A stretch of 18,446 nt of DNA, taken from the IMG/VR virus record IMGVR_UViG_2526164613_000015, one strand, 5' to 3'. The position numbers and the translations under genes are program-made. This document shows positions 1,801 through 9,612 of the stretch, piece after piece. Positions within the stretch are counted from its first letter, which is position 1; each line of letters opens with the position of its first letter. The notes under the pieces were generated by a model. That model was not told the DNA's origin, searched no databases, and saw only the letters and a list, made by a program, of their open reading frames with translations. This DNA comes from a virus (lineage: Duplodnaviria; Heunggongvirae; Uroviricota; Caudoviricetes).

Positions 1801-1827
1801 TAAAAACAAAAAACCCGCCGAAGCGGG
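1801..1827 (-). terminator. rho-independent terminator downstream of the HTH-ImmA gene
   Basis: Minus strand reads CCCGC-TTCG-GCGGG followed by TTTTTTGTTTTT; hairpin 1814..1827. Same hairpin sequence recurs at 3649..3662. Confidence 0.6.
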
Positions 1828-1832
1828 TATAC

Positions 1833-2939
1833 TCAAACAATCTGGAAAATATTTCTTGGATTTGTAATAGGTCTGTTGATGGAGAACAACTCACGAATTA
1901 AATCTTGGCTCAAGCCAGTTTTCATAAGAATTCTTAGCCAGGTTGCATCATCCAGCATTTCAATCGCCTCGGCCAGCATGCCGGGTTCTTCAGGGCGCAA
2001 AAGTTCATCACCAGGTTCAACTCTCGTATACCCTCTGGAATTAAGATGCATATAGCCAGTTCTTGCCTGTTCCTGGGTCAATAAGCCTAATGCGCTGGCT
2101 CGATAAATACACATTTTAAGGCTGATTTTCCATCTAAGTTTAAATTCAACCAGAGCATTCCAGTCGAATTGCTTACCTCGTATTCGTGGAAATTCTTTAA
2201 TGAAAGATAACCTGGGAACTAATAAGGCGCTCGAAAAGTGATCGGCTTGTGATTCCGTAAGTTTATCACCTGTCGTTATGCCCTCATGCATTACTAAATG
2301 CCCTAATTCATGACCTAAATCAGAGCGAAATCTACATATGCTTTTTTTAACATTGTTCCTGATGATAACAGGCCTGTTATTGTGAACAGTAAAAGCATCA
2401 ACACGATCATCGACTCCCGTAACATGCGCAACGATTACCCCTAAACTCTCCGCCAATTTAACCATTGATGATATAGGGCCAAGACCTAAATTCCAGGCAC
2501 GGCGACAATCTTCTGCCACTCGCTCAATATCATTCGGAGTAAGTAATTCAGCCCCTGGGTGCTCCGGTATGTTAACGTCAGGAAATTCGATTTCACCTTC
2601 AACAGCAGAAATTATAATATTAAGAATCTCAGCCCTGGCCAATACACTATTAGTCAGCGTTTGAGTCCTGGACTTCTTACTCCGAAAATGGCAGACATCA
2701 CTTTCCAGAGCGTATTTTCGTTCAGTAAAAAGAAAACTGGACTTAATCATAAGCGCTGAAGATATTAACTCAAGACATTGCTCCGATGGCCTGCACCCCT
2801 TCTCCAGTTTGCTAACAAATTGCTTTGTCTTGCCAATTTTTTCGGCTAACTCTTCACAAGAAAGCCCAACAGCCATTCTCGCTAGTTTGAGCTTATCACC
2901 CCGATACTCAGTGAAGTTATTCACCTGATGTTCCATCAC
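1833..2939 (-). CDS. fused XRE-type HTH / ImmA-IrrE family zinc metallopeptidase (COG2856-like), 368 aa
   Basis: N-terminal HTH (LARMAVGLSCEELAEKIGKTKQFVSKLEKG); HEXXH zinc-binding motif in SDLGHELGHLVMHEG; start is GTG at 2939 or ATG at 2936; overlaps upstream ORF by about 20 nt. Confidence 0.8.
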   Translation of the reverse strand: MMEHQVNNFTEYRGDKLKLARMAVGLSCEELAEKIGKTKQFVSKLEKGCRPSEQCLELISSALMIKSSFLFTERKYALESDVCHFRSKKSRTQTLTNSVLARAEILNIIISAVEGEIEFPDVNIPEHPGAELLTPNDIERVAEDCRRAWNLGLGPISSMVKLAESLGVIVAHVTGVDDRVDAFTVHNNRPVIIRNNVKKSICRFRSDLGHELGHLVMHEGITTGDKLTESQADHFSSALLVPRLSFIKEFPRIRGKQFDWNALVEFKLRWKISLKMCIYRASALGLLTQEQARTGYMHLNSRGYTRVEPGDELLRPEEPGMLAEAIEMLDDATWLRILMKTGLSQDLIRELFSINRPITNPRNIFQIV

Positions 2940-3567
2940 TGCTCACATCCAAATCTTTATCCTTCGTACGCCGACGAAGAGGCACCTTATTAATCTCCGC
3001 TTCGTCAGGGAGTGTGTTATAATCAAGAGGCATAAGCGGCATCGATGCTGTAGATTGATGAGAAACTATACTAATCTGAGCACCATAAGTATTAAATCCA
3101 ACAAGAGCTACCTCCCAACGAGGCAGTGTGGACTCTAATTCACCATCGCCCTCTTCGGATAAAAAAGGCTCAGCTATGACTCGCCATGTAATATCTTGCT
3201 CAGCCTCAACATCACCAAACAATGAGAGCTGCTCATACTCTACTTTATTTCGACGCAGACGATGTTTCTTTTTGGGGTTATTAATGCAATCTTTGGTAAA
3301 TTGTAGCGGAACTTTATTTAAAGCAACTACATAGTCCAACCCCTTGGAAATCATCTCAAGGCCAGGAATTGCATCTTCATTTTGAATAAGATGATTTCTG
3401 ACCCAATCATAAGCCCTTACACCTTCAGACCAGTTGCTGTCTAATGCGTGCTTATGATAGTACAGCTGCTCAAGTACGTTAGCGATCTCCGCCAACAAGT
3501 GGCGAACATAGTTTTCAGCAAGATAAGGTTGAAATTCCCAACAAGGAGCTAACTGATTTTCATTCAT
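2917..3567 (-). CDS. hypothetical acidic protein (216 aa), first gene of a two-gene operon with the HTH-ImmA peptidase
   Basis: ATG at 3567; no TM segments; acidic stretches (GDVEAEQD, SEEGDGELES); stop overlaps start of 1833..2939; preceded by promoter-like sequence with perfect TTGACA. Confidence 0.6.
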   Translation of the reverse strand: MNENQLAPCWEFQPYLAENYVRHLLAEIANVLEQLYYHKHALDSNWSEGVRAYDWVRNHLIQNEDAIPGLEMISKGLDYVVALNKVPLQFTKDCINNPKKKHRLRRNKVEYEQLSLFGDVEAEQDITWRVIAEPFLSEEGDGELESTLPRWEVALVGFNTYGAQISIVSHQSTASMPLMPLDYNTLPDEAEINKVPLRRRTKDKDLDVSSDGTSGE

Positions 3568-3595: not shown

Positions 3596-3631
3596 AAACC
3601 ACATATTTTCGCATTTTTCTATTTTTGTCAA
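3596..3631 (-). promoter_or_regulatory. candidate sigma70 promoter for the 216-aa / HTH-ImmA operon
   Basis: Minus-strand TTGACA at 3631..3626, AT-rich spacer, weak -10 candidates (AAATAT/AATATG) about 17-18 nt downstream; about 35-60 nt upstream of the ATG at 3567. Confidence 0.35.
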
Positions 3632-3643
3632 CCAGACTAATGC

Positions 3644-3662
3644 AAAAACCCGCCGAAGCGGG
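3644..3662 (-). terminator. rho-independent terminator, probable 3' end of the hok transcript
   Basis: Minus strand CCCGC-TTCG-GCGGG followed by TTTTT; lies about 70 nt downstream of the hok stop; identical to hairpin at 1814..1827. Confidence 0.6.
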
Positions 3663-3732
3663 TTAAGTGCGGGTGCGTTGAGGATGCCTGGCACATCAGA
3701 GGTGGCGGGAGATTACTCCCCCGCCGGGTCTC

Positions 3733-3888
3733 TTACTCCTCAGGTTCGTAAGCTGTGAAGACAGCGACCTCCGTCTGGCCGGTTCGGATTCGTACCTCGC
3801 AGAGGTCTTTCCTCGTTACCAGTGCCGTCACTATGACGGTTAAACAGATGACGATCAGGGCGATTAACATCGCCTTTTGCTGCTTCAT
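3733..3888 (-). CDS. hokD: Hok/Gef family type I toxin (51 aa), HokD/RelF-like
   Basis: Manual translation of minus strand gives MKQQKAMLIALIVICLTVIVTALVTRKDLCEVRIRTGQTEVAVFTAYEPEE, matching HokD/RelF as recalled; single TM helix plus conserved C-terminal Cys region. Below the 60-aa ORF-track cutoff. Confidence 0.85.
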   Translation of the reverse strand: MKQQKAMLIALIVICLTVIVTALVTRKDLCEVRIRTGQTEVAVFTAYEPEE

Positions 3889-4099
3889 AGCCTGCTTCTC
3901 CTTGACCTTTTGGTCCGTAAGAGGCTAATCTCTATGTGTCGCATAGATATGGCCTCAGATTAATGTTAAGCGTCTTGCAGGACGCGTAATGTTAACTGGG
4001 GCTTTTCTCTATCTGCCTTTTGGTGTTCATGCCTGAGGCAGATAGCCTCAAGCACCCGCAGCAATTCTACTTAACTCCCGTCACCTCGCCAATATAAAA

Positions 4100-4189
4100 T
4101 CAATCAGAAAGGCGATCCATAAGAACAATAGCAAGACAATAAATTGCCACTACAGCCGCAATAGCCAGCGCGCATTTGAGAACCAGCAC
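4100..4189 (-). CDS. candidate small hydrophobic peptide (29 aa)
   Basis: GTG at 4189..4187 preceded by AGGAGG at 5-nt spacing; translation MLVLKCALAIAAVVAIYCLAIVLMDRLSD is a single predicted TM helix; about 70 nt downstream of the SIR2-like gene stop. Confidence 0.3.
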   Translation of the reverse strand: MLVLKCALAIAAVVAIYCLAIVLMDRLSD

Positions 4190-4259
4190 GATAACCTCCT
4201 GTATTGGACGTACACCAGCTCTGATAAATATGAGGCTGCCTCTTTAACTTCGCATTGCG

Positions 4260-5291
4260 CTACCAATCAATAAAATCAGTGATGTTATCCAACCTAATTA
4301 CAGTAACTTCCCGTCTCAACTGGTTTTTCCAATATATCTCACGAGCGTTTTGTTCACCAGCACCGCTCCACTCAATTACTCTTAAAGGCTTAGAGGTTAG
4401 GTAAGGTCGAATAAGCAGGTTAAGGTGAATATCGAGACCAGAGTAACCAAACAATATTATTTCTTCTGATTCAAATAATGCAAACTGCAAATAATCCCAG
4501 TACGTAGAAAGAACATTAGATGCTGCTATAACTGACGGTTTTCTTTTTATATGAGTTAACACTATATGCTCACTAGGTTCATCTATGTCAAGAGTAAGTT
4601 GTGAGCGTGAAAGTTTTAAAACATTTTCATGCTGATTAATAAATAGTGGTGAACCATGCAAGTGCAAATAATAACCAAACCTACGATTGTATTTCCGTTC
4701 GAGCGCTGCAGAGGAAAATCCGTGGCTTAGCATCCCATCAACTAAAACCCCATCATACCCGTTGAATATATCATTATCTATGAATGAATTGTATAATAAT
4801 TTGTCATAGTTTAATGTCGCGATATGTGAGTGTGTGTTCTTTACAAACTCCACAAGCGCATTTTCGAATCTTTGTGGCAAACCTTTATCGTAATTATGCA
4901 ACCTGGTTGCAACTTTGTGAATATAAGTGGCGGTAATTTTGGGGAAGTTTAGTCCATCTTCAGTAAGCCAATGCACGTTCCCCTCTCCAATTTGAGCAAG
5001 AGCTTTACAATATGTGACAGCCTGGTGAAGGGTATCCAACTCATGTTCTCCTTCTGGTGGACCTTGCCGCTGAAGACAACGCTCGATAAGTTGCTTGTGG
5101 ATATCTTTTAAAAAATTGGGGCGATGCCAAATTTCTTCCAACGCTCTGTCTAAGGAGAAGTGAGCAGGATCTAAAGCCATACCGAGACCGTTGCCGAATA
5201 TTATTAATTTTCTTGCCATATAGGGGGACTCATATTGGAATAACGCTGGATAGCGTAGCGCGATACGCTTAAGTTTAGGATTAATAGACAT
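4260..5291 (-). CDS. SIR2-like (sirtuin-fold, SIR2_2/DUF4020-type) putative NADase, 343 aa, stand-alone
   Basis: Ordered motifs LIIFGNGLGMA (Gly-rich loop), ATLNYDKLL, YLHLHGS, ILFGYSGLD as in defence-associated SIR2 domains; gene and 370-bp upstream region are markedly AT-rich. Confidence 0.8.
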   Translation of the reverse strand: MSINPKLKRIALRYPALFQYESPYMARKLIIFGNGLGMALDPAHFSLDRALEEIWHRPNFLKDIHKQLIERCLQRQGPPEGEHELDTLHQAVTYCKALAQIGEGNVHWLTEDGLNFPKITATYIHKVATRLHNYDKGLPQRFENALVEFVKNTHSHIATLNYDKLLYNSFIDNDIFNGYDGVLVDGMLSHGFSSAALERKYNRRFGYYLHLHGSPLFINQHENVLKLSRSQLTLDIDEPSEHIVLTHIKRKPSVIAASNVLSTYWDYLQFALFESEEIILFGYSGLDIHLNLLIRPYLTSKPLRVIEWSGAGEQNAREIYWKNQLRREVTVIRLDNITDFIDW

Positions 5292-8616: not shown

Positions 8617-8729
8617 TGAAATCTGGTAATTAAGGAATCCTCCACGGGGGGGAGTGGTGCACACGCGCCGGACACAAGCAAGCATCCGGCATGCTCTTTA
8701 ACAATCTGGATATCCATAACAGTAAAAAT

Positions 8730-9559: not shown

Positions 9560-9612
9560 TTTCTGGTGACATTTGGCGGTATCAGTTTTACTCCGTGACT
9601 GCTCTGCCGCCC
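9560..9612 (+). ncRNA. dicF: DicF-like small RNA
   Basis: TTTCTGGTGACATTTGGCGGTATCAGTTTTACTCCGTGACTGCTCTGCCGCCC followed by TTTTT matches K-12 DicF as recalled with about one mismatch; lies immediately upstream of the dicB-like gene. Confidence 0.65.

What the first reader, a model, noticed from the sequence alone, without database searches (positions are those of the whole stretch)
3733..4099. HokD-like type I toxin gene missed by the ORF track, without the relBE genes that precede hokD in K-12
The 51-aa reading frame matches HokD/RelF as recalled. In K-12 Qin, hokD is the third gene of relBEF. Here the upstream interval (3889-4259) is only 370 bp with no RelE/RelB-sized ORFs, and the upstream neighbours are the SIR2-like gene and the 29-aa ORF. 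The leader, which should hold mok/sok-type regulatory elements, contains a hairpin-capable segment (TGAGGC-agata-GCCTCA near 4031-4050).
Basis: partly seen in the sequence, partly recalled or inferred. Interest (0 to 1): 0.4.

Follow-up and report, generated by a model that had tools for sequence, protein, structure and literature searches.

The report
Intact hokD/sok toxin-antitoxin cassette in prophage
This is an ordinary, complete copy of the well-known hok/sok-type RNA-controlled toxin module (hokD allele) carried by a lambda-like prophage of E. coli; the relBE-hokD arrangement of K-12 is the rearranged minority form, and this is already published.

Summary
A 51-codon ORF at 3888..3733 (- strand) encodes a protein identical to K-12 HokD. 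No relB or relE is present in the window. The interpretation needs reframing, because nothing is missing. Rfam RF01794 matches the leader end to end (107.5 bits, cut-off 59). K-12 shares only the last 14 nt before the hokD ATG; relBE has replaced the rest. The K-12 relE-hokD junction occurs in 1166 of 5426 complete E. coli genomes. This type of leader occurs in 4261. The relBE integration is published, and the 92.6% identical hokW-sokW of prophage Sp5 has been validated by experiment. RefSeq already annotates the gene as hokD. One small twist: here mok is a 19-codon ORF whose UGA overlaps the hok AUG, whereas hokW has a 70-aa in-frame Mok. This variant is common. The cassette lies between cargo genes: a SIR2-family gene upstream and a Rosmer defence pair downstream. 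Verdict: already known, low interest.

The parts
4064..4092 (-). predicted hok promoter: TTGGCG (4092-4087), 17-nt spacer, TAGAAT (4069-4064)
   Evidence: The consensus scan scores 9 of 12. It sits 7 nt upstream of the first position of the Rfam leader model at 4057. The -10 TAGAAT is kept in 9 of 10 aligned relatives. The transcription start is inferred, not mapped.
3641..4057 (-). predicted full-length hok (hokD) mRNA, about 415 nt: leader, mok, hok, 3' UTR with fold-back element, terminator
   Evidence: The 5' end is set by the Rfam RF01794 model start and the 3' end by the terminator. MFE is -173.6 kcal/mol, z -7.1, with the 5' end paired to the 3' end. The same long-range pairing appears in the RNAalifold consensus of 12 loci.
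3886..4057 (-). hok mRNA leader / sok overlap region (Rfam RF01794 'sok')
   Evidence: 107.5 bits against a gathering score of 59, E 5e-24, model positions 1-157 of 157. The match is on the hok-sense strand, and the last three model positions align to the hok AUG. It therefore identifies the leader region, not the strand of Sok.
4034..4050 (-).
   Evidence: The first 33 nt fold into an 11-bp hairpin, -19.6 kcal/mol, z -5.1. In the full-length MFE the same bases pair instead with 3' and internal partners. The name and role come from knowledge of plasmid R1 hok mRNA.
3885..3944 (-). mok-type leader ORF: ATG 3944-3942, 19 codons (MRHIEISLLRTKRSRRSRL), UGA 3887-3885 overlapping the hok AUG (AUGA); GAGG Shine-Dalgarno at 3956-3953
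   Evidence: Translation of the three frames and a census of 12 loci. The ATG position is invariant in all 12, but the frame relative to hok varies. The same 19-codon form occurs in strain SCU-112.
3733..3888 (-). hokD coding sequence, 51 aa, Hok/Gef membrane toxin; AGGAG Shine-Dalgarno at 3902-3898
   Evidence: It is identical to K-12 HokD.
3902..3931 (+). predicted sok promoter: TTGACC (3902-3907), 18-nt spacer, TAATCT (3926-3931)
   Evidence: Read directly from the sequence. The -10 aligns with TAACCT of sokW. Primer YO-421 of PMC8621323 alters exactly those bases in the sokW promoter-less construct, which lost antitoxin activity. It falls below the threshold of the generic promoter scan.
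3938..4008 (+). predicted Sok antisense RNA (about 70 nt), complementary to the mok SD and start codon; both ends inferred
   Evidence: It folds into a 5' single-stranded tail, a long hairpin and a U-rich tract, -31.9 kcal/mol, z -5.7. The start is inferred from the promoter spacing. The position corresponds to sokW, which was detected with probe YO-592.
3672..3684 (-). fold-back inhibition (fbi) element CCUCAACGCACCC, pairing with the 5' end GGGUGCUUGAGG
   Evidence: It is paired in the MFE and in all sequences that reach the 5' end in the 12-locus consensus (pairs 6-17 with 389-401). The element is also retained in K-12.
3647..3664 (-). intrinsic terminator of the hok mRNA (AACCCGCTTCGGCGGGTT followed by TTT)
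   Evidence: Terminator scan: 7-bp stem with 5 GC pairs. A 20-nt exact second copy lies at 1828..1809, after rmrA.

Best explanation
Window 3641-4092 (- strand) is a complete hok/sok-type type I toxin-antitoxin cassette of the hokD allele group, carried as cargo in the nin region of a Qin/lambda-like prophage.

Proposed mechanism, by homology with plasmid R1 hok/sok and Sp5 hokW-sokW:
1. A weak constitutive promoter makes a stable hok mRNA of about 415 nt.
2. The 5' end of that mRNA pairs with a 3' fold-back element. The mok Shine-Dalgarno (GAGG) pairs with a downstream GCCUC box. The full-length RNA is therefore neither translated nor bound by Sok.
3. Slow 3' trimming refolds the RNA and exposes the mok start region.
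4. The unstable antisense Sok RNA (+ strand, about 3938-4008) pairs across the mok SD and AUG. This blocks mok translation and triggers duplex cleavage.
5. When Sok supply stops (loss of the element, or prophage induction), ribosomes translate the 19-codon mok. They terminate at the UGA that overlaps the hok AUG and so open or reinitiate on hok. The 51-aa HokD then depolarises the inner membrane.

Shown here: every sequence element, its conservation, and the predicted folds. Inferred: transcript ends, processing, Sok action, coupling and toxicity in this strain.

K-12's relB-relE-hokD is the derived form, in which relBE replaced the whole leader, mok and sok.
For: - HokD is identical to the K-12 protein and matches Pfam HOK_GEF.
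- Rfam RF01794 matches full length at 107.5 bits.
- A promoter lies at the right distance.
- 5'-3' end pairing appears in the MFE (z -7.1) and in the 12-locus consensus fold, where 12 pairs show compensatory changes.
- The mok ATG position is invariant in 12 loci.
- The Sok candidate has a tail, hairpin and U-tract shape.
- The cassette is 92.6% identical over 417 nt to VT2-Sakai/Sp5 hokW-sokW. There, toxin activity, antitoxin RNA activity and a sok -10 mutant were tested (PMC8621323).
- Homology with K-12 starts 14 nt before the ATG.
- Genome counts are 1166 for the K-12 junction and 4261 for this leader type.
- The relBE integration into hokD is published (PMC6379469).
- The HokD coding sequence was toxic as a control in the Hok survey preprint (10.1101/2025.08.07.668861).
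Against: - Nothing was measured in this strain.
- The sok promoter is weak by consensus (3 of 6 in the -10) and the generic scan did not pick it up.
- The mok frame differs from the validated hokW (19-codon uORF versus 70-aa in-frame Mok), so coupling efficiency is unknown.
- Chromosomal hok loci tested by Pedersen and Gerdes did not mediate post-segregational killing (as summarised in the preprint).
- The aligned relatives are over 88% identical, so covariation support for the fold is thin (covariation term +0.22).
Confidence: 0.9

Rival explanations
1. The locus is a decayed, non-functional hok relic. Relative to hokW, a net 1-nt change between the mok ATG and the hok ATG truncates Mok to 19 aa and uncouples hok from mok, so HokD is never made.
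For: The distance from mok ATG to hok ATG is 56 nt here and 57 nt in 9 of the 12 loci; 7 of those 9 encode an in-frame 70-aa Mok. K-12 chromosomal hok loci are known to be inactivated, and tested chromosomal loci did not give post-segregational killing.
Against: About 790 E. coli records carry the 81-nt mok region at 95% identity or more, and none of the sampled rows has an indel. One of them (SCU-112) was read and has the same frame. Hok, its SD, both promoters, fbi and the terminator are all intact. A stop codon overlapping the next start (AUGA) is a classic coupling arrangement. Another relative ends mok 6 nt before the hok AUG, and P1-type plasmids use the third frame. Frame flexibility therefore looks tolerated, not degenerative.
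Confidence: 0.07
2. hokD is expressed here as the last gene of an operon read from upstream (SIR2 gene, 29-aa ORF, then hokD), as relBEF is in K-12, and is not controlled by its own antisense RNA.
For: All three ORFs are on the - strand with short gaps: 70 nt between the SIR2 stop and the 29-aa ORF, and 211 nt between the 29-aa ORF and hok. No strong terminator was found between them.
Against: The cassette has its own promoter. The unit that recurs next to unrelated upstream genes in phages and plasmids begins just upstream of that promoter, at window 4069-4077. The leader is conserved as an RNA structure with 5'-3' pairing that needs a defined 5' end.
Confidence: 0.03

Closest known systems
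hokW-sokW of Sakai prophage 5 (Stx2 phage VT2-Sakai), Takada et al. 2021, PMC8621323
   Same: It is also carried by a lambdoid prophage. It is 92.6% nucleotide identical over the whole 417-nt unit. The 5' leader, mok ATG position, sok -35/-10 positions, fbi and 51-aa toxin match, with residues 1-44 identical. Toxin and antitoxin RNA functions were shown by experiment.
   Different: The HokW C-terminus is VDYESEK, against TAYEPEE here. mokW is a 70-aa in-frame extension of hokW, while here mok is a 19-codon ORF ending at the hok AUG. The sok -10 is TAACCT there and TAATCT here. hokW lacks the AACCCGCTTCGGCGGG terminator of this copy. It also lies in a different place in its phage, with different neighbouring genes.
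hokD (relF) of the relBEF operon, E. coli K-12 Qin prophage
   Same: The protein is identical. The coding sequence, 3' UTR, fbi and terminator are nearly identical. The position in the prophage is syntenic, upstream of the rem / DUF968 (ydfU) / Q genes.
   Different: K-12 lacks everything upstream of -14: no hok promoter, leader, mok or sok. relE and relB take their place, and hokD is co-transcribed with them. This window has none of relBE.
hok/sok (parB) of plasmid R1, the paradigm type I TA
   Same: The architecture is the same: a stable structured mRNA with 5' tac hairpin and 3' fbi, a mok leader frame, and a short antisense Sok overlapping the mok start. Both match the same Rfam and Pfam families.
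   Different: From my recollection of the R1 sequence, R1 mok is a long out-of-frame overlap of about 70 codons. The leader here has a 16-nt insertion in the hairpin that is the complement of the Sok terminator (alignment). The location is a prophage, not a plasmid.
hokC/mokC (gef) of E. coli K-12
   Same: The Hok subfamily is the same. The in-frame reading upstream of hok here (PLTDQKVKEKQA) resembles the MokC N-extension as I recall it, and the PPompW relative has MLVTYRLPLTDRKVKEKQA.
   Different: In this window a UAG at 3927-3925 blocks that in-frame extension. The comparison with MokC rests on memory and was not tested here.

Membership tests
[quoted passage not shown] | Small Hok/Gef-family membrane toxin ORF (about 50 aa, Pfam PF01848) | tested here: met
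   PF01848 at 82.9 bits against a cut-off of 22, profile positions 1-42 of 42. The protein is identical to K-12 HokD.
[quoted passage not shown] | Conserved structured leader of the toxin mRNA (Rfam RF01794 region) upstream of hok | tested here: met
   Full-length match of 107.5 bits against a gathering score of 59, E 5e-24, on the hok-sense strand and ending at the hok AUG.
[quoted passage not shown] | Long-range 5'-3' pairing (fbi) that locks the full-length mRNA | tested here: met
   GGGUGCUUGAGG pairs with CCUCAACGCACCC in the MFE (z -7.1) and in the consensus of 12 loci. These pairs are invariant, so there is no covariation evidence for them.
[quoted passage not shown] | mok-type leader reading frame, with its own SD, that runs into the hok translation start (translational coupling) | tested here: met
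   ATG 3944 with GAGG 8 nt upstream; 19 codons; UGA overlaps the hok AUG. The form differs from R1 and hokW. The coupling itself was not tested.
[quoted passage not shown] | cis-encoded antisense Sok RNA with its own promoter and terminator, overlapping the mok start region | tested here: inconclusive
   The promoter-like TTGACC-18-TAATCT aligns with the sokW promoter that was mutated by experiment. The RNA has a predicted tail, hairpin and U-tract. There are no transcript data for this strain, and the promoter is below the generic scan threshold.
[quoted passage not shown] | Toxicity of Hok and its neutralisation by Sok | not testable with these tools
   The only support comes from relatives. 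The HokD coding sequence is toxic (preprint), and hokW-sokW was validated (PMC8621323).
relBEF operon (K-12 arrangement) | relB and relE immediately upstream of, and co-transcribed with, hokD | tested here: not met
   tblastn of RelE and RelB against the window gives a best E of 0.16. The annotation of the identical genome region has no RelBE. Homology with K-12 ends 14 nt upstream of the hok ATG.

The most novel reading that the evidence does not exclude
The 19-codon mok whose UGA overlaps the hok AUG may be a distinct and widespread way of coupling in the hokD group: termination-reinitiation, with no Mok-Hok fusion protein made. About 790 E. coli records carry this form. Among loci more than 88% identical, mok uses all three frames relative to hok: a 70-aa in-frame fusion, a 68-aa overlap in another frame, and uORFs of 17 or 19 codons. 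The mok ATG never moves. This would be a natural experiment showing that only the act of translating into the hok start region is selected, and the different forms might set different toxin thresholds.
Probability: 0.3. Interest if true: 0.25.

Novelty: already known. Interest (0 to 1): 0.1.

Why it matters
It matters little beyond correct annotation.

- The window carries a textbook hok/sok-type module that RefSeq already names hokD. Its close relative hokW-sokW has been characterised. The literature already treats K-12's relBE-hokD as the result of relBE integration.
- The practical points are modest. The mok ORF, the Sok RNA and the leader are not annotated in the RefSeq records I inspected. 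K-12 is a misleading reference for this locus.
- The cassette sits among variable cargo and defence genes in the prophage, which fits the published enrichment of hok in prophages.

Tried and rejected
- **relBE-like genes.** I looked in all frames of the window and found none.
- **In-frame MokC/MokW-like extension of hok.** A UAG at 3927-3925 blocks it.
- **The 29-aa ORF (4189..4100).** I asked whether it belongs to the system or is a known small toxin. tblastn found it in only 4 phage records, unannotated in three and overlapped by one 'hypothetical protein' feature in HannyBb. It is open in 4 aligned loci but carries mostly non-synonymous differences. I left it as an unexplained side observation.
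- **A second hok/sok copy in the window.** There is none; only the 20-nt terminator repeat turned up.
- **The generic promoter scan.** It did not detect the sok promoter, so I placed it by homology with sokW instead.
- **Covariation analysis of the mRNA fold.** It adds little, because the relatives are too similar.
- **Locus files for Python.** Several were not available there, so I made the comparisons with the alignment tools.

Full report
**Where the window comes from.** Window 3600-4300 is 100% identical to the chromosome of E. coli strain 2013C-4465 (NZ_CP015241.1). The annotated region is a lambdoid, Qin-like prophage. On the - strand it reads Q antiterminator, RusA, DUF968, two small genes, an HTH/peptidase gene, a 216-aa gene, hokD, a SIR2-family gene, DUF977, replication and YdaT genes, and cro/cI-type regulators. 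On the + strand it carries dicB, an exonuclease gene and an integrase gene. Rfam also finds DicF at 9561-9612.

**Checking the observation.**
- The 51-codon ORF at 3888..3733 (-) is present.
- It carries the same RefSeq protein accession as K-12 HokD.
- It is 51/51 identical by tblastn.
- It matches Pfam HOK_GEF at 82.9 bits.
- No RelE or RelB relative exists anywhere in the window; the best tblastn E-value is 0.16.
- The 370-bp upstream interval has only ORFs of 23-38 aa on that strand.
- The hairpin TGAGGC-agata-GCCTCA is at 4034-4050.

**What the upstream interval contains.** It is not an empty or odd leader. It is the complete control region of a hok/sok-type locus.

- *Leader.* Rfam RF01794 matches 4057..3886 on the hok-sense strand over its whole length (107.5 bits, gathering score 59, E 5e-24). 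Its last three positions align to the hok AUG. The family is named 'sok', but the model evidently describes the hok leader, which overlaps sok. I use it as evidence for the region, not for the strand of Sok.
- *hok promoter.* A promoter-like site, TTGGCG-17-TAGAAT (4092..4064), ends 7 nt before the model start.
- *Terminator.* A terminator at 3664..3647 follows the ORF.
- *Fold of the full transcript.* The predicted 417-nt transcript folds at -173.6 kcal/mol (z -7.1). Its first 12 nt (GGGUGCUUGAGG) pair with CCUCAACGCACCC at about 3684-3672. This is the 'fold-back inhibition' end-pairing known from plasmid R1 hok mRNA. The same pairing appears in the consensus fold of 12 related loci.
From knowledge of R1, this is the metastable 5' hairpin of nascent hok transcripts.

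**mok.**
- On the hok strand an ATG at 3944-3942, preceded by GAGG, opens a 19-codon frame (MRHIEISLLRTKRSRRSRL).
- Its UGA (3887-3885) overlaps the hok AUG as AUGA.
- The alternative in-frame extension of hok, annotated as MokW or a 'MokW-like' protein in relatives, is blocked here by a UAG at 3927-3925.
- In a census of 12 hokD-type loci the mok ATG position never moves, but the frame does:
  - 7 loci have a 70-aa in-frame Mok-Hok.
  - 2 P1-like plasmids have a 68-aa overlap in another frame.
  - 1 phage has a 17-codon ORF whose stop codon lies 6 nt before the hok AUG.
  - The window and strain SCU-112 have the 19-codon form.
- The 81-nt mok region of the window is found at 95% identity or more in about 790 E. 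coli records. The sampled rows have no indels. The variant is common, not a private mutation.

**sok.**
- On the + strand, TTGACC (3902-3907), an 18-nt spacer and TAATCT (3926-3931) align with the sokW promoter of prophage Sp5.
- Primer YO-421 of Takada et al. changes exactly those -10 bases in the sokW promoter-less construct, and that construct lost antitoxin activity (PMC8621323).
- An RNA starting near 3938 would be complementary to the mok start codon and SD.
- It folds into a 5' tail, a long hairpin and a U-rich tract (-31.9 kcal/mol, z -5.7).
- The transcript ends are inferred.

**Comparison with K-12.**
- The alignment shows near-identity from 14 nt upstream of the hok ATG through the coding sequence, 3' UTR, fbi and terminator. 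Upstream of that point there is no similarity, because K-12 has relE and relB there.
- K-12 therefore keeps the toxin gene and 3' elements but has lost the hok promoter, leader, mok and sok.
- The K-12 relE-hokD junction is present, at 80% coverage or more, in 1166 of 5426 complete E. coli genomes.
- The 101-nt leader segment 3960-4060 is present in 4261 genomes at 8620 places.
- The intact cassette is the common state.
[quoted passage not shown] **Relatives.**
- The unit 3661-4077 is 92.6% identical to the hokW-sokW locus of VT2-Sakai/Sp5 and many Stx2 phages.
- Longer matches occur in phages Tritos ('HokD toxin') and HannyBb.
- In all, 110 phage records match.
- hokW-sokW was shown to be a functional type I TA. 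sokW RNA disappears and HokW is made on mitomycin C induction, and phage release is halved without the locus.
- A recent survey reports Hok enrichment in prophages and used HokD as a toxic control.

**Mechanism.** I commit to the mechanism given under best explanation. It is a self-contained hok/sok-type module in which Sok blocks mok translation, and mok translation, terminating on the hok AUG, licenses hok translation. Its biological role is one of the known ones for the family: prophage retention, help with lysis on induction as for hokW, or abortive infection. I cannot discriminate between these here.

**Rivals.**
- A decayed locus. This is made unlikely by the intact elements and the frequency of the variant.
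- Operon read-through from the SIR2 gene. This is made unlikely by the cassette's own promoter and by cassette boundaries that recur next to unrelated neighbours.

**Surroundings.**
- The two genes directly downstream match PADLOC RmrT (E 5e-25) and RmrA (E 6e-105; HTH plus M78 peptidase). This is a Rosmer defence pair.
- That 1.8-kb insert is flanked by two exact 20-nt copies of the hokD terminator (3663..3644 and 1828..1809). After the second copy the sequence resumes homology with the K-12 and EC9 rem region.
- Upstream, homology with other hokD loci ends at about 4242. There the SIR2_2-domain gene begins.
- Other genomes carry different cargo in the same slot: an alpha/beta hydrolase, QueH, or Paa/AdfO.

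**Verdict.** The feature is an already known, already annotated kind of locus in its ordinary, intact form. Interest is low.

Noticed in passing
window 1833-3567 (- strand): 3567..2917 (216 aa) and 2939..1833 (368 aa): The two genes directly downstream of hokD match the Rosmer anti-phage system in PADLOC. RmrT scores E 4.6e-25. RmrA scores E 6e-105 and also matches Pfam HTH_3 plus Peptidase_M78/ImmA-IrrE. RefSeq calls them 'hypothetical protein' and 'helix-turn-helix domain-containing protein'. Phage Tritos has the same pair after its hokD.
   Followed up: partly
window 3644-3663 and 1809-1828 (- strand): An exact 20-nt direct repeat of the hokD terminator (ACCCGCTTCGGCGGGTTTTT) flanks the 1.8-kb Rosmer insert. 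After the second copy the sequence regains homology with the rem region that directly follows hokD in K-12 and EC9. This looks like a cargo insertion at or next to the terminator hairpin.
   Followed up: partly
window 4100-4189 (- strand): An unannotated 29-aa hydrophobic ORF (MLVLKCALAIAAVVAIYCLAIVLMDRLSD) has a GTG start 5 nt after AGGAGG. It is open and conserved next to hokD in HannyBb, Tritos and EC9, and its region (to about 4242) travels with hokD in about 1557 genomes. It has no Pfam or PADLOC hit. tblastn found it in 4 phage records, unannotated in three and overlapped by one 'hypothetical protein' feature in HannyBb. Differences between copies are mostly non-synonymous, so it is uncertain whether it is a gene.
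   Followed up: partly
window 4260-5291 (- strand): This 343-aa protein has a weak SIR2_2 domain (PF13289, E 1e-5) and weak PADLOC hits to Aga_SIR2 and PDC-S21 (E about 1e-6). It is a single gene in the variable cargo slot just upstream of the hokD block and may be a stand-alone SIR2 defence gene. RefSeq starts it later, giving 960 nt against 1032 nt for the longest ORF.
   Followed up: partly
window 9561-9612 (+ strand): The DicF antisense sRNA is present (Rfam RF00039, 77 bits, full length), next to dicB. This confirms the Qin/dicBF-type prophage backbone.
   Followed up: no
window 3748-3750 (- strand), hokD codon 47 (UAC in GCUUACGAACC): The Tyr codon sits in a UACG context like the TadA A-to-I editing sites reported for hok mRNAs. 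The Hok survey preprint says hokC, hokD and hokE are edited to give the second cysteine. The site is conserved here, but I did not analyse the local structure.
   Followed up: no
window 3886-4057; Rfam RF01794: The Rfam family called 'sok antitoxin' aligns on the hok-sense strand, and its consensus ends in the hok AUG. A hit therefore marks the hok leader and gives the wrong strand for Sok if taken literally.
   Followed up: yes
NZ_CP015241.1 (genome of the window): The 701-nt query has 5 places in this one chromosome, and E. coli genomes with any match have a median of 2 places and up to 10. Several near-identical sok RNAs may therefore coexist and could cross-talk.
   Followed up: no
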